From Styela clava (taxonomy: Eukaryota), in NCBI RefSeq assembly GCF_964204865.1, contig NC_135254.1, positions 19,778,001 through 19,842,000 on the forward strand: DNA of 64,000 bases. The letters run 5' to 3'. A model generated the notes under the pieces. That model was not told the origin of the DNA. It saw nothing but the letters and a program-made list of their open reading frames with translations, and did not search any database. Of this stretch, positions 8,439 through 38,200 are shown piece by piece; position 1 is the stretch's first letter; each line of letters starts with the position of its first letter. The position numbers and the translations under genes are program-made.

Positions 8439-8477
8439 TCACGGAGGTGGAGGTTCCTCTAATTGTGAATATTTCAT
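8439..8477 (-). CDS. Candidate terminal coding exon of the exon-array gene (MKYSQLEEPPPP*)
   Basis: Strong acceptor tttctctactttcatttacag. Read in phase 0, like all upstream exons, it gives 12 codons plus TGA, followed by AATAAA. Confidence 0.55.
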   Translation of the reverse strand: MKYSQLEEPPPP

Positions 8478-14400: not shown

Positions 14401-17400
14401 GAATTTGGTATTTCTTTAATGTGATGCCATCCTGAAAATATAAATGCGTCTTGAAATAACTACTTCGTAATTTCATTCAATATAAGAAATGAATCCAATT
14501 TCATTCTACTTAATATTGAGTTATTAATAAACAAACCTTGTCTTCGCCGTTCAAAGCAGAATTTGCCTTTTCCGACAGAAGACTGAGTATATCATCGTCT
14601 TCAAATGTAACATCCTCTTCGTCCTGTTAAATTCATATTTTGAAGTTCACACAAAACAAAGACCTAACTAAAATTTGCCCTACTTTTTGAGACAATTGAA
14701 TAATCCTATATTTTCAAATTCTTGCACTGTATATATTTAGCTAGAGAAGTGGGTTTGGCGGAAAAAAAAATAAGTGAAAGAAACCCAATGTAGGATGTCT
14801 CGAAAATTCCATGTACGTCTTGTTCCACGTGTCCCAGCAGTACATGGTGCATTACTTGTACCACGTTTCCAAATCAATGTTTAAATATCACAGGTCAATT
14901 TACTTAAACAAACCTTGTCTTCACCGTCCAATGCAGAATTTACAGTTTCGGACAGGAGACTAGGAAAATATTCTTTTCCAAATGTTGAAGGAACTTTTCT
15001 GATGGCGTCACATTCAGCAATATTTACTGGAGTTTGGTATTTCTTTGATGTGATGCCATCCTGAAAAAATAGATGCGTCTCGAAATAACTATTACGTAAC
15101 TTCTTCAAATATATAAAAAATGAATAAATGAACAAGCTGGTAAACAAACCATTTCTTCAATATCCAAAGCACAATTGGCCTTTTCTGACAGAAGATGAAG
15201 GACATCATCGTCTTCAAATGTAACATCCTCTTCGTCCTGTTAAATTCATTTTTTATAGTTTACACAGAACAAACACCCAACTATACTATAATTTGAACGA
15301 CTTTTTTGTGACGAAAAATAATCCAGTCTATTTATACTTTTCTACTGTATATATCTAGCTGGAGAATTGTGTTTGGCAAAGAAAAATGAAGTAAAAGGAA
15401 TCCAAAGTGGGGTGTCTCGAAAATGTCGTGTCCCACTAGTTCCATGTTTCCCAATAGTCTTACGTGTCTCACTTGTCGCACGCATCCCACTCAGTATCCA
15501 TATATTACAGTTTAATTTACTTGAACAAACCTTGTATTCAACGTCCAAAGCATAATTTACATTTCCTGACAGGAGACTAGGGATATATTCGCTTTCAAAT
15601 GTTGAACGAACTTTTCTGATGGCGTCACATTCAGCAATATTCAATGGAGTTTGGTATTTCTTTGATGTTATGCCATCCTTAAAATATACATGCGTCTTGA
15701 AATAACTTTTTCGTAATTTGTTGAAATATAAGAAAATAATTCAATTTCATTTTACTTAATATTGAGTTAATGATAAACAAACCTTGTCTTCGCCGCTTGA
15801 AGCAGAATTTGCCTTTTCCGATAGAAGACCAAGGATATCATCGTCTTCAAAGGTAACATCCTCGTCCTCCTGTTTAATTAATATTTTGTAGTTCACACAA
15901 ATCAAAGACCTAACAAAAATTGCCCTACTTTATTAGACGAGTAAATAATCTTCTCTTTTCAAATTTTTGCAATGTATATACTTAGTTGGAGAATTGCGTT
16001 TGGTGAAAAAAAATGAAAGGAACCCAATGTAGGGTGTCTCGAAAATTTCGAGTAGCCTACGACTTGTTCCACGTGTCTCAGCAGTACATGGTGCATCACT
16101 TGTACCGCGTTTCAAATTAATATTTATATATTACAGGTTAATTTACCCAAAAACTTCCTCTTCGTCCCGTTAAATTTATATTTTGTAGTTTACACAAAAC
16201 AAACACCCAACTATACTATAATTTGAAAGACATTTCAAGACGAAGAATAAATCCAGTCTATTTATACTCCTGTACTGTATATATATATATTTAGCTGGAA
16301 TTTGCGTTTGACAAAGAAAAATGAAGTAAAAGGAATCCAATGTAGAGGGTATCTAGAAAATATCGTGTCCCACTAGTTCCATGTGCCCCAATAGTCCCAC
16401 GTGTCTCACTTGTCCCACGCATCCCACTCAGTATTTAAATATTACAATTTAATTTACTTAAACAAACCTTGTCTTTAACGTCCAATGCAGAATTGCTATT
16501 TTCTGACAGGAGACTAAGAATATCATCGTTTTCAAATGAAGCATCTCCGCCGTTCTGTTAAATTTTGTTATTTAACTCAAAACACAGACCTAACTGTTTT
16601 AAAATTTAATTTGTAAGACGAGGGATTAATCTTGCCTAACTACATTCTTAGCAACACTTCGAATTTGTAAATAATTAGCTGAAGAATTTCACTTGTTAAA
16701 GAAAAAAAAAGTAGAATGAACTCAATATGCAAATAATTATGTAGATCAATTAACAAACCACTAATATTTCATTCAACGAAATAATCCACTCCTGTGTTTA
16801 TTTATTGTAGTTCTTATATTTGTCAAGATAAAAAATTCACAAACCTTTGGAAGCAAATCAATATTGTCGAGAATAGAAATGACAACAGCCTCAAAAATTA
16901 GCATTTCATCTGAGATCTGTGGCAGAAAAATTAAACTTTTGTTAGCAAGGTGAATAAAACGATATATCAAATACAGTTGAAGCTTCTGGAAACTTTATAT
17001 ATGAATTTTAATGATTGCCAACTCGTTAAATTTGATGTTCCCATTCATTTTCACGATCATACAAAACAGGTTTTTATTCTATTGAGTTGTTTCTTCATTT
17101 TAAATCGAATGATTTAATATCGATGCTCGGTTATCGATGCTCAGTTACTCGGTTTAATATTCTTGACATCAAAAACAAATATTTATGGAAGACAGTGCAT
17201 TCTTTTGCTTCCAGGAGATTGACAATTGTACTCGTTTTGTTAGATATTAAACAGTTTGGAAAAATATAAGGCAACATAGAATATGGATAGATATTCTTGA
17301 GCATCATTCACCACTAACTGGTTTGAAGTTAGGTATATAAAAATGTACTTTAAAAATGTTGTACGAACTTTTCTGATGACGTCGCATTCAGCATTTTTCA

Positions 17401-20400
17401 CTGAAGTTTGGTATTTCTTTGATGCGGTGTCATCCTGGAAATAGATGCGTAAATAGTACATGGTGCATTACTTGTACCACGTTTCCAAATAAATATTTAT
17501 ATATCGAAGGGTAATTTACTCAAACAAACCTTGTCTCCACCGCCCAATGCAGAACTTACATTTTCAGACAGGAGACTAGGAAAATATTCATTTTCAAATG
17601 TCGAAGGAACTTTTTTGATGCCGACACATTCAGCAATATTCACTGGAATTTGGTATTTCTTTAATGTGATGCCATCCTGAAAATATAAATGCGTCTTGAA
17701 ATAACTACTTCGTAATTTCATTCAATATAAGAAATGAATCCAATTTCATTCTACTTAATATTGAGTTATTAATAAACAAACCTTGTCTTCGCCGTTCAAA
17801 GCAGAATTTGCCTTTTCCGACAGAAGACTGAGTATATCATCGTCTTCAAATGTAACATCCTCTTCGTCCTGTTAAATTCATATTTTGAAGTTTACACAAA
17901 ACAAAGACCTAACTAAAATTTGCCCTACTTTTTGAGACAATTGAATAATCCTATATTTTTAAATTCTTGCACTGTATATATTTAGCTAGAGAAGTGGGTT
18001 TGGCGGAAAAATAAATAAGTGAAAGAAACCCAATGTAGGATGTCTTGAAAATTTCATGTACGTCTTGTTCCACGTGTCCCAGCAGTACATGGTGCATTAC
18101 TTGTACCACGTTTCCAAATCAATGTTTAAATATCACAGGTCAATTTACTTAAACAAACCTTGTCTTCACCGTCCAATGCAGAATTTACAGTTTCTGACAG
18201 GAGACTAGGGATATATTCTTTTCCAAATGTTGAAGGAACTTTTCTGATGGCGTCACATTCAGCAATATTTACTGGAGTTTGGTATTTCTTTGATGTGATG
18301 CCATCCTGAAAAAATAGATGCGTCTCGAAATAACTATTACGTAACTTCATCAAATATATAAAAAATGAATAAATGAACAAACTGGTAAACAAACCATGTC
18401 TTCAATATCCAAAGCACAATTGGCCTTTTCTGACAGAAGATGAAGGACATCATCGTCTTCAAATGTAACATCCTCTTCGTCCTGTTAAATTCATTTTTTA
18501 TAGTTTACACAGAACAAACACCCAACTATACTATAATTTGAACGACTTTTTTGTGACGAAAAATTAATCCAGTCTATTTATACTTTTCTACTGTATATAT
18601 CTAGCTGGAGAATTGTGTTTGGCAAAGAAAAATGAAGTAAAAGGAAAACAATGTGGGGTGTCTCGAAAATGTCGTGTCCCACTAGTTCCATGTTTCCCAA
18701 TAGTCTTACGTGTCTCACTTGTCGCACGCATCCCACTCAGTATCCATATATTACAGTTTAATTTACTTGAACAAACCTTGTATTCAACGTCCAAAGCATA
18801 ATTTACATTTCCTGACAGGAGACTAGGGATATATTCGCTTTTAAATGTTGAACGAACTTTTCTGATGGCGTCACATTCAGCAATATGCACTGGAGTTTGG
18901 TATTTCTTTGATGTTCTGCCATCCTTAAAATATACATGCGTCTCGAAATAACTCTTTCGTAATTTGTTCAAATATAAGAAAAGAATTCAATTTCATTTTA
19001 CTTAATATTGAGTTAATAATAAACAAACCTTGTCTTCGCCGCTTGAAGCAGCATTTGCCTTTTCCGACTGAAGACGAAGGATATCATCGTCTTCAAATGT
19101 AACATCCTCTTCGTCCTGTTAAATTAATATTTTGTAGTTTACACAAAACAAAGGTCTAACAAAAATTGCCCTACTTTTTGAGACGTGAATAATCCTATCT
19201 TTTTAAATTCTTGCACTGTATATATTTAGCTGGAGAAATGCGTTTGGTGAAAAAATAGGTGAAAGGAGCCCAATGTAAGGTGTCTCGAAAATTTCGTGTA
19301 CGACTTGTTCCACGTGTCCAAAAAGTCCAACGTGTCTCATTTGTCCCACGTATCCCACTTAACATTCATATATTACAGGTTAATTTACTCAAACAAACCT
19401 TGTCTTCACCGTCCAATGCAGAATTAGCCTTCTCTGACAGAAGACTAAGGATATCATCGTCTTCGAATGTAACATCTTCTTCGTCCTAACAAATTCATAT
19501 TTTGTAGTTTACACAAAACAAGAACCTAACTATACTATATTATAACGAACTTTTCAAAGACGAAAAATTAATCCAGTCTATTTGAATTCGTGTACTGTTT
19601 ATATTTAGCTGGAGAATTGCGTTTGGTAAAAAAAATCAAGTGAAAGGAATCCAATGTAGGTTGTCTCGAAGGTTTTTTGTACGACTTATTGCACGTGTCC
19701 AAGTAGTACATAGTACATCACTTATAGTATACCACATTTCCAAATTAATATTTATATATTACCGGTTAATTTACTTAAACAAACCTTGTCTTCACCGCCC
19801 AAAGCAGAATTTGACAGGAGATTAGGGATATATTCGTTTTCAAACGTTGAACGAACTTTTCCGATGGCGTCACATTCAGCAATATTCACTGGAGTTTGAT
19901 ATTTCTTTGATGTGATGCCGTACTGAAAAAAATAGATGCGTCTCGAAATACCTACTTCGTAATTTCTTCAAATATATAAAAATTGGATTAATGAACAATC
20001 TGGTAAACAAACCATGTCTTCAATATCCAAAGCAGAATTGCTCTTTGCTGATAGAAGACTAAGGACATCATCGTCTTCAAATGTAACATCCTCTTCGTCC
20101 TGTTAAATTTATATTTTGTGTTTAACACAAAACGAACACCCAACTATACTATAATTTAAACGACTTTTTGAGATGAAGGATTAATCCAGTCTATTTATAC
20201 TCTGATACTTTATATATAAGCTGAAGAACTGTGTTTGGCAAATAAAAATGAAGTGAAAGGAATCCAATGTGGGGTGTCTCGAAAATGTCGTGTCCCACTA
20301 GTTTCATGTTTCCCAATAGCCCCACGTGTCTCACTTGTCCCACGCATTCCACTCAGTATTTAAAGATTAGTTTAATTTACATTAGACAAACCTTGTCTTC

Positions 20401-23400
20401 AACGTCCAAAACAGAATTGGCTTTTTCTGACAGGGGACTAAGAATATCATCGTTTTCAAATGAAACATCTCCGCCGTTCTGTTAAATTCCAATTGTTATT
20501 TATCTCAAAAAACAGACCTAACTATTTTAAAATTTAACAGTATTTTGTAAGGCAAGGGATTATTCTTGACTAATTACGTTCTTAGCTACACTTCAAATTT
20601 GTAAATAATTACCCGGAGAACTTTTCTTGGTGAAGAAAAAATAAATAGAATGCAATCAATATGCAAATAACTATGTAGATCAATAAACTAACAACTCATA
20701 TTTCATTCACCAAAATAATCCCACTTCTGTGTTTATTTATTGTAGTTCTTATATTTGTCAAGATGAAAAAATTCACAGACCTTTGGAAGCAAATCAATAT
20801 TGTTGAGAAAGGAAACGACAACAGCCTTGAAAAATAGCATTTCATCTGAGTTCTGTGGCAGGAAAATTAAACTTCTGTTAGCAAGGTGAATAAAACGATA
20901 TAACAACTTCAGTTGAATTTTCTGGAAACTTTATATATCAATTTCAATGATTTCCAACTCGTTGAATTTAAATTTCCTATTTATTTCTACGATCATACAA
21001 TACAGCCTTTCATTTCTATTGAGTTGTTTCTTCATTTCATATCGAATGATTTAATATCGATTCTTACTCGGTTTAATATTCTTGACCTCAGAAACAAATA
21101 TTTGTGGAAGACAGTGCATTCTTTTGCTTCCAGAAGAATGACAATTGTACTCGTTTTGTTAGATAGTAACATAGGATATGGATGGATGCGTTTGAGCATT
21201 ATACACCACTAACTGGTTTGAAGTTAGGTTTATAAAAATGTACTTATAAAAATGTTGTACGAACTTTTCTGAAGACGTCGCATTCAGCATTTTTCAATGA
21301 AGTTTGGTATTTCTTTGATGCGATGTCATCCTGGAAATAGATGCGTAAACAGTAAATGGTGGTGCATCACTTGTACTACGTTCCCAAATAAATATTTATA
21401 TATTAAAGGTTAATTTACTCAAACGAACCTTGTCTCCACCGCCCAATGCAGAATTTACATTTTCAGACAGGAGACTAGGAAAATATTCATTTTCAAATGT
21501 AGAAGGAACGTTTTTGATGCCGACACATTCAGCAATATTCACTGGAATTTGGTATTTCTTTGATGTGATGCCACCCTGAAAATATAAATGTGTCTTGAAA
21601 TAACTACTTCGTAATTTTATTCAATATAAGAAATGAATCCAATTTCATTCAACTCACTATTGAATTAATAATAAACAAACCTTGTCTTCGCCGTTCGAAG
21701 CAGGATTTGCCCTTTTCGACAGAAGACCAGGGATATCATCGTCTTCAAATGTAACATCCTCTCCGTCCTGTTAAATTCATATTTCCTAGTTTACACAAAA
21801 CAAAGACCAAACTAAAATTTGCCCTACTTTTTTGAGACGAGTGAATAATCCCATCTTTTTAAATTCTTGTACTGTATATTTTTTAGCTGAACAAGTGCAT
21901 TTGGTGAAAAAAAAATAAGCAAAAAAACCCAATGTAGGATGTCTTGAAAATTCATGTATGTCTTGTTCCACGTGTCCGAATAGTCCAACGTGTCTCATTT
22001 GTCTCACTTATCCCACTCAACATTCCTATATTACAGGTTAATTTACTCAAACAAACCTTGTCTTCACCGTCCAATGCAGAATTGACCTTTTCTGACAGAA
22101 GACCAAGGACATCATCGTCTTCAAATGTAACATCCTCTTCGTCCTGTTAATAGTTTACACAAAACAAGGACCTAAATATACTATAATTCAACCATCTTTT
22201 AAAAGAGGAAAAATAATCCAGTTTATTTGAACGCTTGTACTGTTTATATTTAACCGGAGAACTGCGTTTGGTGAAAACAAAATTAGTGAAAGGAACCCAA
22301 TGCAGGGTGTCTCGGAAATTTCGTGTACAACGTGTTCCACGTGTTCCAGTAGTACATAGCGCATCACTTGTACCACGTATCCACATTCATATATTACAGG
22401 TTAATTTACTTAAACAAACCTTGTCTTCACCGCCCAATGCAGAATTTACATTTTCGGACAGGAGACTAGGGATATATTCGTTTTCAAATGTTGAACGAAC
22501 TTTTCTGATGGCGTCACATTTAGCAATATTCACTGGAGTTTGGTATTTCTTTGATGTGATGCCATTCTGAAAAAATATAGATGCGTCTCGAACTACTCGT
22601 AATTTTTTCAAATATAAATAAAATGAATTCAATTTCATTCTACTTAATATTGATTTATTAATAAACAAACCTTGTCTTCGCCGCTTGAGGCAGAATATGC
22701 CTTTTCCGACAGAAGACGAAGAATATCATCGTTATCAAATGTAACATCTTCTTCGTCCTGTTAAATAATTTTTTTGTAGTTTACACAAAACAAATACCTA
22801 ACAAAAATTACCCTATTTTTTGAGACGAGTGAATAATCCTATCTTTTGTAATTCTTGCACTGTATATATTAAGCTGGAGAAATACGTTTGATGAAAAAAA
22901 AATAAGTGAAAGGAACCCAATGTAGGGCGTCTCGAAAATTTCGTGTAAGACTTGTTCCACGTTTCCGAATAGTCAACGTGTATCATTTGTCCAACGTATC
23001 CCACTTAACATTTATATAGTACAGGTCTACTTAAACAAACCTTGTCTTCACCGTCCAATACGGAATTGATCTTTTCTGACAGAAGACTAAGGATATCATC
23101 GTTTCCAAATGAAACATCTTCTTCGTCCTGTTAAATTCATATTTTGTATTTTACATGAAACAAGGACCTAACTATGCTATAATTTAACCGACTTTTGTAA
23201 GACAAGGGAATAATTCAGTCTATTTGAATTCTTGTTCTGTGTATATTTAGCTGGAGAATTGCGCTTGGTAAATGAAAGGAACGGAGCCCTATTAGGGTGT
23301 CTCGAAAATTTCGTATCCCACTTGTTCCATGTTTCCCGATAGTCCAACGTGTCTCACTTATCACACGTATTCATATTCATATCTATATATTACCGGTTAA

Positions 23401-26400
23401 TTTACTTAAACAAACCTTGTCTTCACCGTCCAATGCAGAATTTACATTTTCGGACAGGAGACTAGGGATATATTCTTTTCCAAATGTTGAAGAAACTTTT
23501 CTGATGCCGTCACATTCAGCAATATTTACTGGAGTTTCGTATTTCTTTGATGTGGTGCCATCCTGAAAAAATAGATGCGTCACAAAATAATTACTTCGTA
23601 ATTTCATTAAATATATAAAAAATGAATTATTGCACAAGCTGGTAAACAAACCATATCTTCAATATCCAAAGCAGAATTCGCCTTTTCTGACAGAGGACTA
23701 AGGACATCATCGTCTTCAAATGTAACATCATCTTCGTCCTGTCAAATTTATATTTTGTAGTTTACACAAAACAAACACCCAGCTATACTATAATTTAAAC
23801 GACTTTTTGAGACGAAAAATTCATCCAGTCCATTTATGCTCTTGTACAGTTTATATTTAGCTGGAGATTTGTGTTTGTCAAAAAAAATGAAGTAAAAGGA
23901 ATCCAATGTGGGGTGTCTCGAAAATGTCGTGTCCCACTAGTTTCATGTATCCCAATAGTCCCACGTGCCTCACTTGGCCCACGCACCTCACTCAGTATTT
24001 AAATATTACAGTTTCATTTACTTAAATAAACAAACCTTGTCTTTACCGCCCAAAGCAGAATTTTCTGACACGAGACTTAGAATATCATCGTTTTCAAATG
24101 AAGCATCTCCGCCGTTCTGTTAAATTTTAATTTTTATTTAACTCAAAACACAGACCTAACTATTCTAAAATTTAACAGACCTTTGTAAGACAGGGAATCT
24201 TGCCTAACTACATTCTTAGCTACACTTCGAATTTGTAAATAATTAGATGAAGAATTTCACTTGTTAAAAAAAAAAGTAGAATGAGTTTAATATGCAAATA
24301 ATTATGTAGATTAATTAACTAATCACTAATATTTCATTCAACGAAATAATCCCACTCCTGTGTTTATTTATTGTAGTTATTATATTTGTCAAGATGAAAA
24401 ATTTACAAACCTTTGGGAGCAAATCAATATTGTCGAGAAAGGAAATGACAACAGCCTTGAAAAAGAGCATTTCATCTGAGGTCTGTTGCAGGAAAATTAA
24501 ACTTTTGTTAGCAAGGTGAATAAAACGATATAACAATTTTAGTTGAAGTTTCTGGATACCTTATATATAAATTTAAATGATTGCTAACTCATTAAATTTA
24601 AATTTTCAATTTATTTTCACGATCATACAAAACAGGCTTTTATTCTATTGAGTTGTTTCTTCATTTTAAATCGAATGATTTAACATCGATGCTTACCTGG
24701 TTTAATATTCTTGACCTCAAAAACAAATATTTATGAAAGACAGTGCATTCTTTTGTTTACAGGAGAATGACAATTGTACTCGTTTTGTTAGATTTAAACG
24801 GTTTGGGAATAGATAAGGTAACATAGAATATGAATAGATAATCTTGAGTATTATTCACCACTAACTGGTTTGAAATTAGGTATATAAAATTGTACTTATA
24901 AAAATGTTGTACGAACTTTTCTGATGACGTCGCATTCAGCATTTTTCACTGAAGTTTGGTATTTCTTTGATGCGGTGTCATCCTGGAAATAGATGCGTAA
25001 ATAGTACATGGTGCATTACTTGTACCACGTTTCCAAATAAATATTTATATATTGAAGGGTAATTTACTCAAACAAACCTTGTCTCCACCGCCCAATGCAG
25101 AATTTACATTTTCAGACAGGAGACTAGGAAAATATTCATTTTCAAATGTCGAAGGAACTTTTTTGATGCCGACACATTCAGCAATATTCACTGGAATTTG
25201 GTATTTCTTTAATGTGATGCCATCCTGAAAATATAAATGTGTCTTGAAATAACTACTTCGTAATTTCATTCAATATAAGAAAAGAATCCAATTTCATTCT
25301 ACTCAATATTGAGTTATTAACAAACAAACCTTGTCTTCGCCGTTCAAAGCAGAATTTGCCTTTTCCGACAGAAGACTGAGTATATCATCGTCTTCAAATG
25401 TAACATCCTCTTCGTCCTGTTAAATTCATATTTTGAAGTTCACACAAAACAAAGACCTAACTAAAATTTGCCCTACTTTTTGAGACAATTGAATAATCCT
25501 ATATTTTTAAATTCTTGCACTGTATATATTTAGCTAGAGAAGTGGGTTTGGCGGAAAAAAAAATAAGTGAAAGAAACCCAATGTAGGATGTCTTGAAAAT
25601 TTCATGTACGTCTTGTTCCACGTGTCCCAGCAGTACATGGTGCATTACTTGTACCACGTTTCCAAATCAATGTTTAAATATTACAGGTAAATTTACTTAA
25701 ACAAACCTTGTCTTCACCGTCCAATGCAGAATTTACATTTTCTGACAGGAGACTAGGGATATATTCTTTTCCAAATGTTGAAGGAACTTTTCTGATGGCG
25801 TCACATTCAGCAATATGCACTGGAGTTTGGTATTTCTTTGATGTTCTGCCATCCTTAAAATATACATGCGTCTTGAAATTACTCTTTCGTAATTTGTTCA
25901 AATATAAGAAAAGAATTCAATTTCATTTTACTTAATATTGAGTTAATAATAAACAAACCTTGTCTTCGCCGCTTGAAGCAGCATTTGCCTTTTCCGACAG
26001 AAGACGAAGAATATCATCGTCTTCAAATGTAACATCCTCTTCGTCCTGTTAAATTAATATTTTGTAGTTTACACAAAACAAAGGCCTAACAAAAATTGCC
26101 CTACTTTTTGAGACGAGTGAATAATCCTATCTTTTTTAAATTCTTGCACTGTATATATTTAGCTGAAGAAATGCCTTTGGTGAAAAAAAATAGGTGAAAG
26201 GAACCCAATGTAGGGTGTCTCGAAAATTTCGTGTACGACTCGTTCCACGTGTCCAAAAAGTCCAACGTGTCTCATTTGTCCCACGTATCCCACTTAACAT
26301 TAATATATTACAAGTTAATCTACTCAAACAAACCTTGTCTTCACCGTCCAATGCAGAATTAGCCTTCTCTGACAGAAGACTAAGGATATCATCGTCTTCA

Positions 26401-29400
26401 AATGTAACATCTTCTTCGTTCTAACAAATTCATATTTTGTAGTTTACACAAAACAAGAACATAACTATACTATATTATAACGAAATTTTCAAAGACGAAA
26501 AATTAATCCAGTCTATTTGAATTCTTGTACTGTTTATATTTAGCTGGAGAATTGCGTTTGATAAAAAAAATCAAGTGAAAGGAACCCAATGTAGGTTGTC
26601 TCGAAGGTTTTGTGTACGACTTGTTCAGTACATGGTACATCACTTATACCACGTTTCCAAATCAATATTTACATATTACAGGTTAATTTACTTAAACAAA
26701 CCTTGTCTTCACCGACCAGTGCAAAATTTACATTTTTTGATAGGAGGCTAGAGATATATTCGTTTTCAAATGTTGAACGAACTTTTCTTATGGCGTCACA
26801 TTCAGCAATATTCACTGGAGTTTGATATTTCTTTGATGTGATGCCATCCTGAAAATATAGATGCGTCTCGAAATAACTACTTCGTAATTCCTCAAATAAA
26901 GAAAATATATTAATAAACAAGCTGATAAACAAACCATGTCTTCAATATCTAAAGCAGAATTGACCTTTTCTGACAGAAGACTGAGGACATCATCGTCTTC
27001 AAATGTAACATCCTCTTCGTCCTAACAAATTCATATTTTGTAGTTTACCAAAACAAGGACCTAAATATACTATAATTCAACCATCTTTTAAAAGACTAAA
27101 AATTAATCCAGTTTCTTTGAATTCTTGTACTGTTTATATTTAACCGGAGAACTGTGTTTGGTGAAAAAAAAAATAAGTGAAAGGAACCCAATGTAGGGTG
27201 TCTCGGAAATTTCGTGTACAACGTGTCCCACGTGTCCCAGTAGTACATAGCGCATCACTTGTACCACGTATCCACATTAATATTTATATATTACAGGTTA
27301 CTTTACTTAAACAAACCTTGTCTTCACCGCCCAAAGCAGAATTCACATTTTTTGACAGGAGACTAGGGATATATTCGTTTTCAAATGTTGAACGAACTTT
27401 TCTGATGGCGTCACATTTAGCAATATTCACTGGAGTTTGGTATTTCATTGATGTGATGCCATTCTGAAAAAATATAGATGCGTCTCGAAATAACTACTTC
27501 GTAATTTCTTCAAATATAAATGAAATGAATTCAATTTCATTCTACTTAATATTGAGTTATTAGTAAACAAACCTTGTCTTCGCCGTTCAAACCAGAGTTT
27601 GCCTTTTCCGACAGAAGACTGAGGATATCATCGTTTTCAAATGTAACATCCTCTTCGTCCTGTTAAATTCATTTTTCGTAGTTTACACAAAACAAAGACC
27701 TAAGTAAAATTTGCCCTAATTTTTGAGACAATTGAATAATCCCTTATTTTTAAATTCTTGCACTGTATATATTTAGCTGGCGAAGTGGGTTTGGCAAAAA
27801 AAATATGTGAAAGGAGCCCAATGTGGGGCGTCTCGAAAATTTCCTGTACGTGTTGTTCCACGTGTCCGAATAGTCCGAAGTGTCTCATTTGTCCCATGTA
27901 TCCCACTTAACATTCATATATTACAGGTTAATTTACTCAAACAAACCTTGTCTTCACCGTCCAATGCAGAATTGATCTTTTGTGAGAGTAGACTAAGGAT
28001 ATCATCGTTTCCAAATGAAACATCTTCTTCGTCCTGTTAAATTCATATTTTGTAGTTTACATGAAACAAGGACCTAACTATGCTATAATTTAACCGACGT
28101 TAGTAAGACGAGGGATTAATCCAGTCTATTTGAATTCTTGTTATGTGTATATTTAGCTGATGAATTGCGTTTGGTAAATGAAAGGAACGGAACCCTATGT
28201 AGGTTGTCTCGAAAATTTCGTATCCCACTTGTTCCACGTTTCCTAATAGTCCAACGTGTCTCAATTATCACACGTATCCATAATAATTTTTACATATTAC
28301 AGGTTAATTTAAACAAACCTTGTCTTCACCGCACAATGCAGAATTCACATTTTCTGATAATAAACTAGAGATATATTCGCTTTCAAATGTTGAACGAACT
28401 TTTCTGATAGCGTCGCATTCAACATTTTTCACTGGAGTTAGGTATTTATTTGATGTGGTGCCATCCTGAAAATTTTGATGCGTCTCGGAATAACTATATC
28501 TTAATTTCTTCAAATATAGCAAATGAATTAATAAACATGCTGACAAACAAACCTTGTCTCCACAATCTAAAGCAGAGTTGTTCTTTTCTGACAGAAGACT
28601 AAGGACATCATCGTCATCAAATGTAACATCATCTTCGTCCTGTTAAACTCATATTTTGTAGTTTACACAAAACACAAACCTAACTATATTTTACCCGAAA
28701 AAATCAAAGACGAAAAATTAATCCAGTCTATTTGAATTCTTGTACTTTTTATATCTAGTTGGACTCAAACAAACCTCGTCTTCACCGTCCAATGCAGAAT
28801 TGACATTTTCTGACGGAAGACTAAGGACATCATCGTTTTCGAATGTTGTACGAACTTTTCTGATGACGTCGCATTCAACATTTTTCACTGGAGTTATGTA
28901 TTTGTTTGATGTGGTGCCATCCTGAAAATTTTAATGCGTCTCGGAATAACTATATCGTAATTTCTTCAAATATAGAAAATGAGTTAATAAACATGCTGAT
29001 AAACAAACCTTGTCTTCATAATCCAAAGAAGAATTGCCCTTTTCTGACAGAAGACTAGGGATATCATCGTCTTCAAATGAAACATCGTCGTCGTACTGAT
29101 AAATTTAGACTTTTTATTCCATACAAAACAAAGACCTAATTATATCATAATTTGAGATTTCGATACATGAGATTAATTTTGTCTATTAAACGTCTTGTAC
29201 ATATTTGACTTGAGAATTGCGTTTATTTCTTAAAAATAAATTAAATAAACCTAATGAACAGATAATTACATAGAACAATGAAATTGCGTCTAATCATTTA
29301 TTCAACAAAATTCTTGATTTTTGAAATAGACGTATGATTTTTATTACAGATCCTATATTATATCAAAATAATAATTTACATACCTGTGGAGGCAAATCAA

Positions 29401-32400
29401 TTTTGGCAGGAAAAGAAATGAGAACATCCTTGGGGGAGAGTATTTCATCAGAAAGCTGAGGAAGAATAAACTATTGTTAAAATCAAATAGAGCAATTGCA
29501 ATTTCCGAAACAATTTATGAGTGTTACCCCTGGTAATTCCGCAGTGTCGATGAAGTTTTGCAGTTACACAAAACAGGTCTCTAATGCAATTTATAGGTTT
29601 ACTGGTTTCCAGCAGAATGAAAATTCGACTCGTTTCGTTAAATATTACAAGAATAAATAATATTATTGGTATACTATTTGTAGGGCAACATTAGATATTG
29701 ATATATATATATATATATACAAGACTACATATTTTACACAAGTAACTTGTTGAAAATAGTCTACAAAAATGTGTTTAAGCGAAAAATGTTGTACGAACTT
29801 TTTTGATAGCGCCGCATTCATCATTTTTCACTGAAGTTTGGGATTTGTTGAATGTGGTGCCAATCTGAAAATAAATGCGTCTCAAAATTTTTCTTTAAAG
29901 TTTAGCAAATTAAAAAAAAAATAGAAAAATGCAATTTCATTCTATTCAATTAATCAGCATTCATTAACGAACATAAATATTGAAGAGATTTGATTCATGG
30001 GGATGAAAATGTGTATCTTTTATACTCCATCATCAAGCAAATGGAAAAAGAGTTACCTTCTACAAAATTGAAATTAGTGGAAATTTTAACACCAAAATCA
30101 TCAAATATTCGGAACCAACAGTTATTAAAAACAAGGCCTGCAATTGCCTCAATTGTGGGTACAATTTGCGCGTTTTGCTCGGTAAAATAGAGCCGCAGAC
30201 TGAAAATATGATAGAAGGTAAATTTCAGCATGATAATTGATGGATCGATAATTGGACACGTTAGTTGGACCTATGGATCGTTTCAATATGATGTTGTTGT
30301 TGTTCTTGTTCTTTGACACGCTATGAATAAGTGGACAAATTGCTTTGAAATTTTCAGTGGTTAAAGATTGATTTTTTTGCCAGAGCTATTACTTCAATTT
30401 TTTATTATTGAACACGAAGTGGACCTGTGGATCGTTTTACTTTTTCTTTGGACACCTAGTGGAAAACCTAAAAAGTCGATTTTATGCTAGCACTCTTCTT
30501 CTTGTTTTTAATCACGTGCTTATCGAACGTCGGCGGTGTGTAACAAAGTTCTTGCTTTCCCAACGGGGAATGGCGTACAGCGCCGTAGGTAAGAACTGCT
30601 TCTCCCTGATTAACGTGTCCCTATATTTTAGCATTGCTCTCTTGTTCCTAATATATTTCTGTTCTGAGGTTATAATTGGTTGTCTGTGACTTGTCTATTT
30701 CATATTCTAGCAAAATAGTGATCGCTAACATTGGAAATTCGATTTTTGAAATTTGGGTCGTGATATGTTTATAAAACTCAGATTTGGGCCCCGCTCAAAA
30801 AGTTCAAGAACCCCTGATCTAAAATAAAAAAGGTAAGAAAGAAAACTATAACTCACATTGTTATTTGGAACTACACTCCTGATTTTATCATCAACCATGC
30901 AGCCAGGTAAGTTCTGTGCAAAGAAATAAAAAATAGTTCAATATAAACTTGTGATTCACCAATGTTAGCAGAGCATATTCGTGATATAAAACTCACCGGA
31001 TATGAGATCGCACGAGGGAGCTCAACTATCGATTTTTGTATCTGAAAATATTTATTTCAAATTAATCAATTGAAATAAAATGTGTGAATAATAGAATAAA
31101 ATCAATCAATTACAATTTGGTCTGCCAAAGCATCGTTATCCAGTGAAGGTATCGTATCAACATTGTTGAAGGAACTTTTGACATAAGACACAGTAGTTTG
31201 CTGTTAAAAATATATATTGGTGAACATAAGTTATTTTCTAAAACAAAATGCATTCCGAGTTTATATTATAACTCTGCAAAGTAATAACCACCACATTTGT
31301 ATAAAATATACATAAGTGCATTTTCAAATATGGAAGCTGTCAATCAAATTGAGATATTTTTTTTGAAATTCGCTCACCGTTCTATATCGTTTTTCCCTTT
31401 TTGGAATGCGGCAACAGCAGCACAGCTGAAATATAAATGACTTGTTTCAATGGCAAGAAAACTTCTGCCTTGTGTTAGTAGTAATGGAACTATAAAACGG
31501 AGCGACGCAACAAAGCATATAATAGATATTATTTTGTAGCCAAGTGTTAATTAAGTATAATAATGGTATCTTACATAAAATACGATAAACTAATTTAATA
31601 TAAAAACCAATAATTTGAAATTAGTATTATATTTACCTTTTTGATATGGCCTGTGAACGATCGGAATATACTCTCATTCTATGAAATAAAATAAAAATAT
31701 TTAGTTGAGAATAAATAAAAGGACGTAGCTTGATAATAATTCTTTCTTCTACGTAGGAAGAAGTATGGAAGTAAACATTGGTTTGTCAAGATCTAGTTTG
31801 TAATCGACCTAAGTTCCCCGCTTGATTAACAATTCCAAGACGAATGAGTCATAAGTGCAACAAGGCATTCTCAAACAAGTATCGTCATATGCTATATTTC
31901 AAATTCTATTGGATTGCGCCAATCTCAATGAATACCGCTAAAAATTTACGTCAACATGCTACTTTAATCCAAATTTACATAATATGTAAACAACAAAACT
32001 CTAACGAGAATATCGGTCGGACCGAAGACTTATCGATCGAAACTGCGGTTTCGATTCATGACTCTATGGTGACACCGCGTGCCACACCACTAATTAATTA
32101 ATAACTCGCTTATTATACGACATAATTCATCCAAAATCGATAGGCTTCTGGTCCGAGATATGATGAATGCACATGCGAAATTTGGAGCAGATTCAACCAC
32201 GCTTTCATGAGATACTGCGTGCATCTAACAGACATACAGACAAATACCTATCAACATACTTACAGATCTAAAGATCGACTCGTATATTTCCTTTCCATGT
32301 GGGTACTAGTATATATAAAGCTTTCTCCGTTGCGAATAGGAAAAATACCTTATTGAAAACAATATGCCTTGCATAGGCTACTCTATTTTACGGAAGAAAT

Positions 32401-32594
32401 CTAAAAAAAAATTAAAATTTCCCCATTGTCATCTCAAATACTGTCCGACTACCAACACTACCCCTCAAAGTTTGTTAGAAGCGTGGTCTAGCACAGAGAA
32501 TGAAAAGTCCGCAATCACCCCTAACCAGATTTAAAAAAGACCCGATATTTCTTTATTACATTACCTTTGGATCACGTCCGTTATGAGAAATCAT
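8439..32594 (-). CDS. Uncharacterised giant acidic repeat protein built from ~69 phase-0 exons (~2,150 aa if all are included)
   Basis: ATG at 32594, six unique exons, 62 intact repeated exons, terminal exon 8477-8439. Exons have canonical AG/GT ends and lengths divisible by 3. No stop was found in phase 0 in the copies translated, whereas the alternative phases hit stops in the exons tested (29799-29864, 30997-31041). Confidence 0.72.
9054..29095 (-). CDS. Class A repeated exons, 87 nt / 29 aa, consensus DEEDVTFEDDDILSLLSEKVNSALDGEDK (variant NGGDASFENDDILSLLSENSNSALDVKDK), 32 copies
   Basis: Copies at 9054-9140, 9729-9815, 10304-10390, 10645-10731, 11809-11895 (donor lost), 12184-12270, 12532-12618, 13223-13309, 14537-14623, 15150-15236, 15783-15869, 16468-16554, 17782-17868, 18395-18481, 19029-19115, 19399-19485, 20013-20099, 20392-20478, 21681-21767, 22057-22143, 22671-22757, 23041-23127, 23652-23738, 24036-24116 (81 nt), 25330-25416, 25959-26045, 26334-26420, 26935-27021, 27573-27659, 27947-28033, 28553-28639, 29009-29095. 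Typical ends ttaacag / AAG|gtttgt. Confidence 0.8.
9275..29455 (-). CDS. Class C repeated exons, 72 nt / 24 aa, e.g. ISDEMLIFEAVVISILDNIDLLPK, 7 copies
   Basis: Copies at 9275-9346, 11037-11108, 13600-13671, 16845-16916, 20781-20852, 24411-24482 and 29384-29455, each with a cag acceptor and GT donor. The two terminal copies are the most diverged (LLDEILLSKDVLISLPDKIDLASV; LSDEILSPKDVLISFPAKIDLPPQ). Confidence 0.72.
10075..28921 (-). CDS. Class B repeated exons, 147 nt / 49 aa, consensus DGITSKKYQTPVNIAECDAIRKVRSTFENEYIPSLLSENVNSALGGEDK, 18 copies
   Basis: Copies at 10075-10212 (138 nt), 11560-11703 (144), 14285-14431, 14914-15060, 15531-15677, 17530-17676, 18159-18305, 18777-18923, 19785-19922 (138), 21429-21575, 22420-22566, 23416-23562, 25078-25224, 25707-25853, 26702-26848, 27317-27463, 28319-28465, 28775-28921. 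Typical ends ttttcag / AAG|gtttgt. Most appear inside the minus-strand ORFs of the track. Confidence 0.8.
14124..29864 (-). CDS. Class E repeated exons, 66 nt / 22 aa, e.g. DDTASKKYQTSVKNAECDVIRK, 5 copies
   Basis: Copies at 14124-14189, 17369-17434, 21265-21330, 24917-24982 and 29799-29864 (IGTTFNKSQTSVKNDECGAIKK). Acceptor is cag; the donor is inferred at AAA|gttcgt because it keeps phase 0 and read-through in the 29.8-kb copy meets a stop after six codons. Confidence 0.62.
30857..30913 (-). CDS. Unique coding exon 6 of the exon-array gene (NLPGCMVDDKIRSVVPNNN)
   Basis: tttctttgcacag acceptor, gtgagt donor, 57 nt, phase 0/0. Confidence 0.7.
30997..31041 (-). CDS. Unique coding exon 5 (IQKSIVELPRAISYP)
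   Basis: ttttcag acceptor, CCG|gtgagt donor, 45 nt; only phase 0 is open. Confidence 0.72.
31114..31200 (-). CDS. Unique coding exon 4 (QTTVSYVKSSFNNVDTIPSLDNDALADQI)
   Basis: tttttaacag acceptor, gtaatt donor, 87 nt, phase 0/0. Confidence 0.68.
31378..31425 (-). CDS. Unique coding exon 3 (LCCCCRIPKREKRYRT)
   Basis: atatttcag acceptor, ACG|gtgagc donor, 48 nt, phase 0/0. Confidence 0.72.
31637..31678 (-). CDS. Unique coding exon 2 (NESIFRSFTGHIKK)
   Basis: ttttattttatttcatag acceptor, AAG|gtaaat donor, 42 nt. Confidence 0.7.
31780..32285. mobile_element. Probable non-autonomous Helitron/Helentron-associated-like repeat in an intron
   Basis: Contains aaatttggagcagattc, a cagacatacagaca microsatellite-like block and related ends (cgatcgaa / agatcgac). 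A segment of similar character lies at ~30235-30600. Classification is inference. Confidence 0.3.
32565..32594 (-). CDS. Candidate first coding segment (MISHNGRDPK) within exon 32639-32565
   Basis: AAG|gtaatg donor; the ATG is in phase with downstream exons and preceded by an in-frame TGA. A further upstream donor (gtgagt at 32884-32879) suggests a 5' non-coding exon. Confidence 0.55.
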
Positions 32595-32950
32595 TCTTCA
32601 ATTGAAAGACATTACTCCGAAAGAAATTTTGACTCATTTCTAATCAACAAAATATGTCCGAGCAATCGTCTGCCAAACATATATACCACACGAGAGCTAC
32701 GTACCGACCAATTTTTATTTAGTACAGGGTATCAGCCCCCCAAAATATAATTTCGAACCATTTTATATCGTAAGCTACCCTTGTGGTTTAAAGATACGAA
32801 CTAAAAACAATTCATTTAATTTTTTGGTTCAACGTTTTGTGACGTAACAGTAGAAAAAGCGATTGTGAACTGCAAAGTACTCACAAGCTTGTGAAGAGCA
32901 AACAATCAGAGTCAAGCGAGAATGTCTCTAATGAGATAGTTGCGAGTGGG

Positions 32951-33164
32951 CAGTGGCGGGCCTAGGGGAGGGCCATAGAGGCAGCCGTACTGGGCAGCAC
33001 GTTATATGAGGGCAGCAGATCCAAGCTGTATAATTTTAGATGTGTAGGTGAAAGCTGACTTTTATTTATATATAACAACATTTATAATTTGTTTATCCCT
33101 CGAATTAAATATCAACAATATCAGAAATTCGCCCTGGGCAGTAGAAAAGTTTGGCAAGCCCCTG
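32951..33164 (+). mobile_element. hAT MITE (family X, short copy)
   Basis: Ends cagtggcgggcc and ggcaagcccctg with gggcagca subterminal repeats. TSD cgagtggg / tgagtggg (7 of 8 match). Confidence 0.85.
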
Positions 33165-33300
33165 TGAGTGGGGTTTTAGATAGCAGAAGATCCCTGGATT
33201 TCATGAAGGAAGTTAATGCTTTTATCATAAACATTTTCTGTGGTGCTAAACTAATTTAAATGTCTGAATTTATGGATTGAAATTTGTTTCTTGATTCGAT

Positions 33301-34210
33301 TTAGATACCATTTACTTCATCGTACTTCGCGTTCAACCTTCGTTGTGCGTTTGCCTCTGAGACTTTGATCACGCCCGATTGTACACGGATACTTACATCT
33401 CCCTTTTTCGCAATCAGGTCGTACAAATGCATTAAGCGCGTTTTAAAATAAGGAATCCAACTTTCTAAACGCCGACATCATACGACTTCCCCTGGTACTA
33501 CGCGAATGGGAAACTTCGAAAATGAAAGTTGATGAAATTAGATGGGTCAAAGAGGTAGAATTATACATGGGGTATTCGGTAAGGTTAAACGGGGTGGGCA
33601 AGATTTTTGGACCAGGGGCTAATAATATTGCCCAACTAGACTGGCGGAACATGTAAATGTGACGTGAAAAGTTACATTTTATGAACAATAATTACAGTGT
33701 TGCAAAAGTGGGAAACCATAAGCATCGTGCCAAAACTAAATTTAATCGCAATCTCAAAAACCCATTGAGCTTATTTTTTAGTCAAAACACCAAAATTTGA
33801 TTTTAGTTTGATTGCGGCTGCATCGTGTGGGTCAGATTGAATTACTCAACGGGTCGGATTTGGTCCGCGGGCAGTATTTTGCCCATGTCATGAATAGAAG
33901 GTGGGGTTATACATGAGGAGTTCAGGGAAATTTAGCGGGTCTGGATCGACATGGCGGTGGAGTAGAGAAGAGTATCTGGACCAAAGCTGAATTGAGCTGG
34001 AGGCACGCTGTGAATTATCACCAGTTCTGCATTTTCACCAACAATTGTTGGTCTCGGGTCTCGAAGAGGGTTACTCGTACCCAGCAGAGCTAATGCGTCG
34101 GACGATTCAGCATATCCACTTATCGAAAAAGATCGCGCGGAGACGTCGCACGTTTTGCACACTATGAATTGCGGTCAACCAAAATTGGAAGAAGCTATTC
34201 GAATACAGCT
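33301..34210 (-). pseudogene. Possible decayed paralogue of the last exon of the 46.7-49.5 kb gene
   Basis: Acceptor ttttcgtttag, then ELYSNSFFQFW / FIVCKTCDVSARSFSISGYAESSDALALLGTSNP / FKTRLMHLYDLIAKKGDVSIRVQSGVIKVS in different frames. These resemble EMYSVRYW / FLSCKSRSNLSAKF..PDLLAMLSLAAP / YGLKLVHHKYVIQQRRENMNCSQVGVIKTI. Interrupted by a Charlie-like relic at ~33695-33890. Confidence 0.35.
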
Positions 34211-34613
34211 CTAAACGAAAACGGGAAACGATAGGGACATCCCTAATATCGCTAGGCGGTAAGGGCGTTAAAAACGAGTAAATCCGCTTAGAAAAATAAT
34301 TTCATTACATGGTTAACAGGAATAGACAAAGTAATTTTCTCTGACGTTGAGCCCATTTTTGGCATACTTCTGCCGCAAAATCACAAAAGATTTATGATGC
34401 CTGGCTACCAATAACGTATATTGACAACCATGATAAATAGAATAGATTGTTAAGTCAAGATTAGAATACGCAATTTACTTTATTTTACTTCAATTCCTAT
34501 TGGTTTTATCATAACGTTGTGTTTTACCTCAACCAAAATAATGGCCCCAAATTTTTCTTCGACGTTGAGCCTCTTTCAGCTTCTTTGGCTTATTTTTACC
34601 TTTGTCAAATAAG

Positions 34614-35285
34614 CAGTGACGTCCCCAAATGGGACAAAAGGGGCAGCCGCCCCGGGCAGCACGTCGTAGGGGGTAGCAAAATCAAGCTGTAGAGTTGGCG
34701 TTATTACAAATGTTTTTCTCGATGCGTTTTTTTTTAAATAAAAGCTTACATTATGTGTTTAGTGTGACTGACCGTGGTGATGATGAGTCAACAATGTATG
34801 TTTCCCCGACTATTGACCCCAGAAAAATTCTTCTTATCCTATTTCATAATTGCAACATTTTTGGTGCTCATTTTAGGGGTTGTTTCGCGAGTTAACGCCT
34901 TAAAATGGTTTATATGTTTCAAACGATCAGTCCAATTCAAAATATTCAGCTCTGTTATTTAAAAGAACCAGTAGAAAAACATATTTGAAGTCTTCGATGT
35001 CAAATAAGCGCCTGTAAATTTTATCTTTGATCAGTATCGAAAAAAAATCCTGACGAGCAAGGTGAAAGAGGCTGTCGTTCAGACATTTATTGCCAGCAAA
35101 GTAGCAATTGGACAAAGAAATAAGCGTCTTGCTCATTGTTAATAAATGAGTTTTATCTTATACATGTGAGTTTGTATAACGACATCTATAATCTGTTTAT
35201 CTCCCGAAATATTTTTGAAGTTAGGGATAAGGGGCATCATTATTAAAAACTCGCCCCGGGCAGCAGAAAATTTGGCACGCCCCGG
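34614..35285 (+). mobile_element. hAT MITE (family X) with dimerisation-domain remnant
   Basis: Ends cagtgacgtcccc and ggcacgccccgg. Perfect TSD caaataag at 34606-34613 and 35286-35293. Internal KTYLKSSMSNKRL*ILSLISIEK. Confidence 0.9.
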
Positions 35286-38200
35286 CAAATAAGTTGCGTG
35301 GATCTCAATAGTTAATAGTTGTATGAAAATTTACCGTGGTTAAATGCTTTTTTATGAGATTTGCATTAAATCATTCTTTCTTGATGTTGGTTTTATACAA
35401 TGTCACAGAACTTTAAATGACAATTATTTAGCATTTTATAAGTGGAAAAATATTTTTTCCAGATGGTTCAATATTTATTTTTTACTCCACGTGACATGGT
35501 TGTTGAAATTAAGGTATCGGATTTAAAGCCATTCAAAAATTTCTGTAACTGTATAACTGTTTATGTGTTACCATCATAAATTACGGCTAGGTACTCAGTT
35601 TGAATTATCCGGGTTCTGGTGTATGAACTTATAAAACATGACGCAATAATATTGCCCAAACAGCTGCATGATTTAAAGCATATTCCACGTAGGCTTACGT
35701 AAATTGGATTTAATGCTTCAAGCTAGGATAGGTACGAACTTTTTGTCAGTTTTGAATTGAACGTAATGGGGGAGGCGCACCCTGGATACTCACACATACT
35801 GGGGTGTATGATATTTGCAAGACGATAGTAGGAACCATTCTGCTGTTTTTTTTATTACATGTTGTCAAGTACCAGTATTCGATCTGCAAGGACGGAAGAA
35901 TGCTACATAGCTCAAATTTGCATTCGATATGCATAATTCGACCCGCCTTAATTCTACCATTCGTTTAATTAATCTGTTGATTAGGGTTAATATTTTTTTC
36001 GATCGTTTAATAACGAATATGTGACATTCAGAAGTGTTGTTTCACTACAAGAGAAAAGTTAGGTTTCACCAAATATATATGTCAAGTCAAGTAGCAGATG
36101 ACGGGGTTTTGACAAATTATATATCTATCATTTCATTTTCGTGATAACGTTAGCGGACATAAACTGGTCGGAATGGGCTAATATATTGCAAGATAACCAC
36201 AATTCCTTTGGCGATCAAAACTGCATTTTGTTTGTCCGTTTGTTGTTGGTTTGTTTCTTTCAGTGTGACCAAAATAAAATATATTGATTGAACTGAGTGA
36301 TCCAGCACCGAAGCTACCTATAGGCTTAATTCGATCCGAACTATATCCAATTATAAATTGTCAGTCATCAAAAGGTCAAGATAAGTTAATATTAAAATAC
36401 CTTCAAGTCACGTCTCTGGCACTGACTGGATTTCATCCGTCGCTTCGATGACATTACTTCACCACACATACCGATTCGACCGTCATATTCGACCAAATAT
36501 GAACTGGCCAATATCTACTGATCATCTTCACTACACAAGAGATCCACCACAAACACTATAATAAATATCACATATTTATAAATACGCAAGAACGAACAGA
36601 TAAACAAGAGTAGATAATCCCGCTTCTCTGCTACATAGTTCTGTTAGGTAGCTAAATGAAATATTTCAGAAATTGATTGGTAAATGCGTTTGTGTTGTAA
36701 CAATGGACAGAAAATTAATTGTATTGTCTCGTATGAATAAATAAAATGTGACCGGTAATGGATGTTTCATCGAGCATCGACTTCTATATTTAATTCCATG
36801 ATATTGGCCAATCATCAAGAAGCTCATGATGATGTCACAATTGAAACTTAAGAAGCCATTCAGACACTTGTGTCACTCGGACAGTTTTTCAGATATGCTG
36901 GTTATCAATGGCTCGTTTTCTCGTTTCGCCACGTATTTGTAAGATTTTTAGTTCAGCTGCAGTAAGTCCCTTAGATGAGAGATGGTGTGACGCATGGCGC
37001 GGCGGTAAAGCGCATCGTGCTAAGCGTAAAGCGGATATATTTGACAACAAAGTCTGTGCCACCACTGTCCAACTCAACTAATAATTCCAGTTTGGATAAG
37101 ACATAAAAAAAGACTTTTTCATTGTTACTAAAATACTTTGGTCATTGTAATATTCCGGGTATTATTAATATATATTACAATAATACTTTATAAATAAGTA
37201 AACAATATTACCACATCAAATACAAAGTAATATATCCTCTCCCAAAACCACAAATCTCTTCTCCGATCTCGTTATCTGCGCGAAAATTTGACCAAGGCCA
37301 AAGTTTTTCTTTATTCGTAAAAATTTCTTATGGCTGGTTGTAAATAAAGTATCAACTATTAATTATGCATTAGCGTTCGTACAATCTGTTTCTGGGAAAC
37401 CGCCTAATTTTATTTGATTTTTTTTTCAAATTTAAAAATGATTTCTCGATTAGATTTTGCATGTGATAAATATAATGGTGAAGAAATACAAATGATTTAT
37501 ATGGTGAATTTTTTTAAGACTAGTGTGTCTTTCCTTTTATTTAATTAAGGTTTCCCAAATATATATATATACCATGTTTTTTATGTTCGTTTTTTTTAAT
37601 TGTTTTACTTTTGACTCGTGAATCTTGGTGTCGCAGACTAATGACCAGTTCTCAGCGACATCTTGTCAATCGCGATGAAATTCGGTATTCTCATGTATAA
37701 TAGTTTGTGATTGAAATATTTGAAGCTATTTTGTGAGTTGTCTAAACGTGGAAGTTTGGAAACGTTGGAAGTAATTAATAGACTGAGTGATGGAAAGACC
37801 TCATGATATACATCCATTAACTGTTTAGGAGGAGCATCGTCGAATCTTCTGAACCGCTCCACCGAAAACAAGCGGACCAATCGCACCCAGGCTAAGAAAC
37901 ACTGTCTTGTTGCATGATTAGGAATGGTTAGAATTCTAGAATTCAACTTTTTTTTTCAAATTATAGCTGTATGACACCACACAAAATTCGTTACGAGTAC
38001 GACCCGGTGGATGTTTGCAAGCGCAGTCATTTGCCGCTTGGAGTCTTCCGCGGCAGTGGATACATTCTGACATTTGTGCACCATTTTCGCAATATGTTGA
38101 CAGGGTTTCATGTTGCAATGGCTGTAGATGCATCGTGGTAATGTCCATCCATATCTGTAAGTCAGTTCCGGTAATCAAAGGAACCTGTCTAGGTCGAGTT

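What the first reader, a model, noticed from the sequence alone, without database searches (positions are those of the whole stretch)
28775..28921. The 147-nt exon class is a fusion of two ancestral exons and keeps the old donor as an internal in-frame switch
Seen: class B equals the 66-nt class E, plus the first bases of E's intron (gttcgtacaacatt, now read VRTTF), plus the 3' part of class A from ACATTTGAA onward. E's intron and A share the microhomology ACATTT. This edge copy is the clearest intermediate (..CDVIRK-VRTTF-ENDDVLSLPSENVNSALDGEDE), as is 10075-10212. Many B copies keep AAA|GTTCGT at nt 66 and others have GTTCCT. Inference: a microhomology-mediated deletion exonised intron sequence. 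Use of the internal donor would yield a 22-aa basic module instead of the 49-aa basic+acidic module without changing frame, a second layer of combinatorial splicing that alters net charge.
Basis: partly seen in the sequence, partly recalled or inferred. Interest (0 to 1): 0.7.

Follow-up and report, generated by a model that had tools for sequence, protein, structure and literature searches.

The report
Fused exon with a silent donor
In a sea-squirt gene built from about 60 repeated exons, one exon type is a patchwork of two other exon types, likely joined by a small deletion, and it still carries the old splice signal inside, but the RNA examined reads straight through that signal, so it is likely a leftover and not a switch.

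Summary
On the minus strand, exon B (28921-28775, 147 nt) is the 66-nt exon E, plus the first 9-15 nt of E's intron, plus the last 72 nt of exon A. The join lies in a shared 5-6 nt (ACATT/ACATTT). B's upstream intron is E-type and its downstream intron A-type. The gene is Styela clava LOC120344762 (2100 aa, acidic, uncharacterised). The likeliest origin is a 709-nt microhomology deletion in an E-C-A unit that also removed exon C, followed by tandem amplification to 18 copies.

The switch is not supported. Spliced RNA contigs confirm that E uses AAA|GTTCGT. In four runs from three studies, B copies with that site are read through it, and no joint from B nt 66 to an A exon appears. The one joint at that place fits E-C-A to the letter. 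The donor is invariant in 5 of 5 E introns, but its +5 G is lost in 8 of 18 B copies. The 'basic' half has a median charge of +1. Rare use is not excluded, because contigs drop minor variants. A well-documented case of a known kind of event.

The parts
28775..28921 (-). Exon B, upstream edge copy, 147 nt, 49 aa, phase 0
   Evidence: full length in RefSeq model XP_077969262.1, aa 192-240
28856..28921 (-). E-derived part of B (nt 1-66)
   Evidence: 80-89% identical to 5 E exons; tree
28841..28855 (-). Exonised start of E's intron, read VRTTF; begins with the relic donor GTTCGT (28855-28850)
   Evidence: 14 of 15 nt equal to all five E introns; read through in RNA contigs
28841..28846 (-). Overlap shared by E's intron (+10 to +15) and A (nt 16-21); ACATTC in this copy
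28775..28846 (-). A-derived part of B (72 nt)
   Evidence: 5 of 72 differences to A10731, 11 to the nearest B; tree
29799..29864 (-). First exon E (66 nt), donor AAA|GTTCGT; other E copies start at 24982, 21330, 17434, 14189
   Evidence: E24982-to-C24482 joint in RNA contigs
29384..29455 (-). First exon C (72 nt); the exon class lost in the fusion
29009..29095 (-). First exon A (87 nt), spliced to B28921
   Evidence: X4 253-nt contig
29075..29783 (-). Counterpart, in the intact E-C-A unit, of the 709 nt that the inferred deletion removed
   Evidence: inference
10075..10212 (-). Downstream edge copy of B (138 nt), internal ATG|GTTCGTACAACATTT, read through
   Evidence: records 1, 17, 27 and loose ends at 22449
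10645..10731 (-). A exon closest to the 3' part of B28921; follows a C exon
9054..29864 (-). Whole exon array, starting E-C-A and ending C-A
31114..31200 (-). Unique upstream exon U3 with a weak resemblance to B
8439..36629 (-). Host gene LOC120344762: first exon 36629-36401, five unique exons 31678-30857, the array, last coding exon 8477-8439

Best explanation
Exon B is a chimera of exon E, the start of E's intron and the 3' part of exon A, likely made by a microhomology-guided deletion, and its internal splice donor is read through in the RNA examined and is likely a silent relic. Shown: the three-part make-up, the E-type upstream and A-type downstream introns, use of the donor in E, read-through in B. 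Inferred: the gene had one E-C-A block, which was duplicated in tandem. In one copy, 709 nt between ACATT(T) in E's intron and the same letters in A were lost, taking the rest of the intron, exon C, the next intron, A's acceptor and A's first 15 nt. The join happened to be in frame, so 9 intron nt became V-R-T. The fused exon was then amplified to 18 copies by unequal crossing-over. Inferred and untested: the old donor (AAA|GT, no G at -1) loses to A's donor (AAG|GT) 81 nt further on, and it has also lost the T run that follows it in E introns. Released from selection, it has decayed in 8 of 18 copies.
For: Junction alignment. Intron alignments: introns before B match the intron before the first E; introns after B match A-to-A introns. 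Array ends are E-C-A and C-A with the unique flanks, and no B touches a unique flank. Trees: B 5' halves form one side against E (88/87), with edge copies nearest E; B 3' halves sit among A exons, one B origin not rejected, p-AU 0.27. Overlap chance 0.003-0.01. RNA: E-to-C joint at nt 66 in X1 and X3; C starts as loose ends at that site in X1 and X10. At the +5 position, downstream of the internal site, depth carrying G is about 37 of 81 (X1), 49 of 58 (X4), 1604 of 2410 (X9), 47 of 63 (X10) (table 3). B10212 is read through in X1, X4 and X9. B28921 is spliced to A29095 and read to nt 84 in one X4 contig of depth 3 that carries its private C at nt 81. A full B end is followed by a C start in X10, as expected for B11703. 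The only one of 12 joints at nt 66 fits E-C-A exactly. The first 16 intron nt are identical between the first E and all 4 inner E, against 50-53 of 66 in the exon; +5 G is lost in 8 of 18 B, 2-3 changes on trees. RefSeq uses 17 B exons, all full length.
Against: No outgroup gene was found, so the direction of change rests on parsimony; the trees are unrooted. Unique exon U3 matches the B profile at 7.3 bits (5 of 3000 shuffles; 24 comparisons), a weak hint that a B-like exon could be old. The internal GTT codon is invariant in 18 of 18 B, though 6 of 49 codons are invariant anyway. The RNA data are contigs, which drop rare variants; 13 loose ends and 185 pieces were not shown, and 42 joints. 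The contig on B28921 passes the site by only 18 nt and retains part of an upstream intron. The E-C-A reading of the one joint is deduced from lengths; the letters between were not printed.
Confidence: 0.75

Rival explanations
1. The internal donor is a working alternative 5' splice site that yields a 22-aa form of B in some tissues or stages and tunes the protein's charge.
For: The same nine letters work as a donor in E. The 81-nt difference keeps the frame. 10 of 18 B copies keep GTTCGT, and GT is kept in all 18. Internal and terminal donors tie at 6 of 9 consensus matches in the two edge copies. Only six runs of unknown tissue were laid, all as contigs.
Against: No B-nt66-to-A joint among the 12 joints, whose joint table was complete, including X9 with contig depths up to about 460. 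GTTCGT copies are not depleted in read-through depth. +5 G was lost 2-3 times. Another in-frame GT at nt 118 scores as high or higher. Switching all ten GTTCGT copies would change net charge by 25 of -277.
Confidence: 0.1
2. B is the older exon, and E, C and A arose when about 700 nt inserted into one B copy with a 5-6 nt target-site duplication, activating a cryptic donor.
For: Deletion at a microhomology and insertion with a duplication give the same junction. U3 resembles B across the junction at protein level. The trees are unrooted.
Against: It needs a ready in-frame donor, an in-frame exon C and an in-frame acceptor in the insert, whose end 30 nt show no inverted repeat. Both array ends are non-B, which needs an extra event. 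A exons are more diverse than B 3' halves (13.3 against 8.9 differences per 72 nt). U3's DNA match is as good to E plus intron as to the edge B copies, does not extend to A, and is in another frame.
Confidence: 0.1
3. The fusion is real, but B28921 is not a preserved intermediate: it is a later recombinant or a second fusion whose 3' part was taken from an A10731-like exon.
For: Its 3' 72 nt are nearer A10731 (5 differences, shared ACATTC) than any B (11); 16 inner B form a starred clade without it. 5' and 3' trees disagree for B25853, B18923 and B28465, so exchange between copies occurs.
Against: One origin of B is not rejected (p-AU 0.27). Both edge copies share E-like and A-like states, as expected where array ends escape homogenisation.
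Confidence: 0.3

Closest known systems
Imprecise intron loss by genomic deletion with microhomology (PMC3296678, passages read; PMC3698931 and PMC4443532, abstracts read; PMC4683709, passages read)
   Same: A deletion between short direct repeats leaves intron letters in the coding sequence and joins two exons.
   Different: Here the deletion also removes a whole exon (C) and an acceptor. Parent and product exons coexist in one gene, and the product was amplified to 18 copies.
Alternative 5' splice-site exons derived from constitutive exons (PMC1876488, abstract read)
   Same: Two donors in frame, an old one and a new one, in one exon.
   Different: The new donor came by fusion and not by point mutation, and use of both donors was not seen.
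Tandem exon duplication with alternative (mutually exclusive) use (PMC8373072, search listing only; Dscam recalled)
   Same: Many homologous phase-0 exons in tandem.
   Different: Listed joints link neighbouring exons and the RefSeq model includes 59 of 62, giving a long repeat protein and not a choice of one exon.
Styela clava LOC120344762, XP_077969262.1, uncharacterized
   Same: It is this gene; its 59 array exons match my translations letter for letter.
   Different: The model skips A22757, B22566 and A11895; its name says nothing of the origin of B.

Membership tests
Imprecise intron loss by microhomology deletion | Former intron letters retained in frame in the exon | tested here: met
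   transcribed as exon
Imprecise intron loss by microhomology deletion | Short direct repeat at both ends of the lost segment | tested here: met
   5-6 nt, chance 0.003-0.01
Imprecise intron loss by microhomology deletion | Flanking introns come from the two parent exons | tested here: met
Imprecise intron loss by microhomology deletion | Direction shown by an outgroup | not testable with these tools
   no homologue or paralogue found
Alternative 5' splice-site exon | Two donors with a frame-preserving distance | tested here: met
   81 nt
Alternative 5' splice-site exon | Both donors used in transcripts | tested here: not met
   only the distal donor seen in 4 runs from 3 studies; contigs cannot exclude rare use
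Alternative 5' splice-site exon | Alternative donor conserved by selection | tested here: not met
   +5 G lost in 8 of 18 B against 0 of 5 E; GTT invariance not unusual
Mutually exclusive tandem exon cluster | One exon chosen per cluster; neighbours not joined | tested here: not met
   the five array joints listed join neighbours; RefSeq includes 59 of 62
Mutually exclusive tandem exon cluster | Variable exon skipping across transcripts | tested here: inconclusive
   42 joints hidden; RefSeq skips two exons that look intact

The most novel reading that the evidence does not exclude
A deletion-born exon keeps its parent's donor as a tissue- or stage-specific in-frame switch in 10 of 18 copies, most likely the two edge copies that retain 14-15 nt of the old intron, so that one gene tunes the length and charge of a 2100-aa acidic repeat protein copy by copy.
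Probability: 0.08. Interest if true: 0.6.

Novelty: new member of a known kind. Interest (0 to 1): 0.25.

Why it matters
The parents (E, C, A) and the product (B) of an exon fusion sit side by side in one gene, so the event can be read without an outgroup. It is also a natural experiment on donor choice: the same nine letters act as a donor in 5 E copies and are read through in B copies. If the switch were real, it would show a direct route from a genomic deletion to regulated alternative splicing; present data point against that.

Tried and rejected
Homologue searches: B exon against longer proteins found none (the 2100-aa protein lay outside its length range); P0001 found only itself. The two other profile hits, P0002 and P0003, are unrelated repeat proteins matching 17-18 positions and were set aside. 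Pfam: 0 families for 8 exon translations; three precomputed Pfam accessions listed for P0001 were not followed up. Own-genome searches showed no second locus (lower bounds). No run is on record as RNA; six guessed-RNA runs of the twelve listed were laid and gave spliced joints. The joint 22145-22501 in X4 looked at first like use of the internal donor. It was rejected because it lands 2 nt into the acceptor (C exons end in AG, B nt 65-66 do not) and the contig's lengths add up to B end 22, E 66, C 72, A 87. Homology of C to A was not significant. No ESM Atlas result was obtained, so look-alikes of the protein remain unchecked. Papers: no hit for the gene id or for three mechanism searches; supplements were not read. 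No earlier scan findings were returned.

Full report
Setting. The window lies in a 377-Mb genome. The minus strand carries an array of 62 phase-0 exons between 29864 and 9054, in the order ECABABAABABAABABECAABAABAABECAABAABABABECAABABABECAAAABCAABACA: 5 E, 7 C, 32 A and 18 B. A profile of 16 of the 18 B exons found one true relative among 1.84 billion proteins: XP_077969262.1, uncharacterized LOC120344762 of Styela clava, 2100 aa. It uses 59 of my 62 exons letter for letter and skips A22757, B22566 and A11895. The protein has net charge -277, 23% D+E, and no clear membrane segment (best 19-residue hydropathy 1.67). No second locus was found in the genome and no other homologue in the databases.

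Observation. B28921 nt 1-66 are 80-89% identical to the five E exons. Nt 67-80 equal the first 14 nt of all five E introns, and nt 76-147 align without gaps to A nt 16-87. The overlap is ACATTT in 15 of 18 B and 17 of 32 A. In this copy it is ACATTC, shared with A10731, its nearest A (5 of 72 differences, against 11 to the nearest B). An overlap of 5-6 nt at a random junction has probability about 0.01-0.003. Introns before B match the intron before the first E, and introns after B match A-to-A introns. The chimeric make-up is therefore shown.

Origin. In every intact unit E is followed by C and then A, so the simplest event is loss of 709 nt from an E-C-A block (inference). Insertion with a target-site duplication gives the same junction, and no outgroup was found. 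Fusion is preferred for three reasons. The array begins E-C-A and ends C-A next to the unique flanks, with no B touching them. All splice sites pre-exist under deletion. A exons are more diverse than B 3' halves. In trees, B 5' halves form one side against E (88/87), with the edge copies nearest E. B 3' halves sit among A exons: 16 inner B form a starred clade, the two edge copies are unresolved, and one origin is not rejected (p-AU 0.27). Against this reading, the unique exon U3 matches the B profile weakly (7.3 bits, 5 of 3000 shuffles, 24 comparisons); its DNA match is in another frame and does not extend to A. Whether B28921 is a preserved intermediate or a later recombinant with an A exon is open.

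RNA. Twelve runs were listed, none on record as RNA. Six guessed-RNA runs were laid as contigs; they give joints with intron ends, so they behave as spliced RNA. (24300-38400, four runs of one study) lists 15 of 57 joints, five in the array: E24982 to C, B25224 to E, and three A to B. All join neighbours, and E splices at nt 66 as predicted. laid four runs from three studies on one GTTCGT-type B and its next A at 80% likeness, so that most paralogues fall there. Its joint table (12 rows, none hidden) has one joint at nt 66, in a 689-nt X4 contig. That joint lands 2 nt into the acceptor, as a C exon's final AG would, and the lengths add up exactly to B end 22, E 66, C 72, A 87. It is E-C-A by deduction; the letters between were not printed. 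Loose ends at nt 66 in X1 and X10 are C starts. Downstream of the site, G at +5 carries about 37 of 81, 49 of 58, 1604 of 2410 and 47 of 63 depth units (rough contig depths), so GTTCGT copies are read through in all four runs. B10212 is read through in X1, X4 and X9. B28921 itself is spliced to A29095 and read to nt 84 in one depth-3, partly processed X4 contig that carries its private C. In X10 a full B end is followed by a C start, the one context where the old donor would restore the ancestral junction. Limits: contigs drop rare variants, 13 loose ends and 185 pieces were hidden, and tissues are unknown.

Selection and charge. The first 16 intron nt are identical between the first E and the four inner E copies (which are related to each other), while the exon is 50-53 of 66 and the following intron 64-66 of 104. 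In B the +5 G is lost in 8 of 18 copies, with 2-3 changes on trees. The GTT codon is invariant, but so are 6 of 49 codons in the 15 full-length copies, and an in-frame GT at nt 118 scores as well. The terminal donor has one more consensus match than GTTCGT in the inner copies and ties in the two edge copies. The 5' half has median charge +1 and the 3' half -3; switching all ten GTTCGT copies would shift 25 of -277.

Comparison. The event matches imprecise intron loss by genomic deletion with microhomology: PMC3296678 (passages) describes such a case in Drosophila; PMC4683709 (passages) finds it rare; PMC3698931 and PMC4443532 (abstracts) cover microhomology-linked and imprecise loss. It differs in removing a whole exon and in later amplification. 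It has the anatomy of an alternative 5' splice-site exon (PMC1876488, abstract) but fails the test of dual use. No paper in the library names the gene; three mechanism searches returned nothing; supplements were not read.

Verdict. Fusion real (origin by deletion about 0.85); switch unlikely (about 0.1). Combined confidence 0.75, interest 0.25, new member of a known kind.

Noticed in passing
window 11560-11430 (minus) and run X4 689-nt contig: In this assembly the E exon before C11108 is deleted, leaving its acceptor stub joined to the E intron. The X4 contig has B-E-C-A-A-B10212, and its A after C is identical to A22143. This suggests array polymorphism between individuals, or a chimeric contig.
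   Followed up: partly
window 12920-12909 and 16165-16154 (minus): Two truncated A copies of 12 nt followed by GT; the first keeps its AG acceptor and could be an in-frame micro-exon, the second has GG. Neither is in the RefSeq model.
   Followed up: no
window 11895-11809 (minus): A exon whose donor reads GA; skipped in the RefSeq model.
   Followed up: partly
window 22757-22420 (minus): RefSeq skips A22757 and B22566 although their splice sites look intact: possible real exon skipping or haplotype difference.
   Followed up: no
window 31425-31378 and 8477-8439 (minus): N-terminal exon with four cysteines and basic residues (like a palmitoylation site; recalled motif); C-terminal exon with YSQL and four prolines (YxxL-like; recalled). 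No membrane segment found.
   Followed up: no
window 29994-29865 versus A-to-B introns: The GTTTGT donors of inner A exons may come from the intron upstream of E, since the edge copies A9815 and A9140 have different donors and share a different intron start.
   Followed up: partly
window 29600-29540 (minus): The first E-to-C intron holds a stretch resembling the intron end before A exons, possibly a decayed acceptor (seen by eye).
   Followed up: no
window 49570-47270 (minus): A probable separate small gene with a signal-peptide-like start and cysteine-rich exons (read by eye).
   Followed up: no
window about 49700-58100: Another set of multi-kilobase direct repeats, unrelated to the exon array.
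   Followed up: no
window 13223-19700: Recent multi-exon duplications of about 3.2 kb, with exact repeats up to 337 nt.
   Followed up: no
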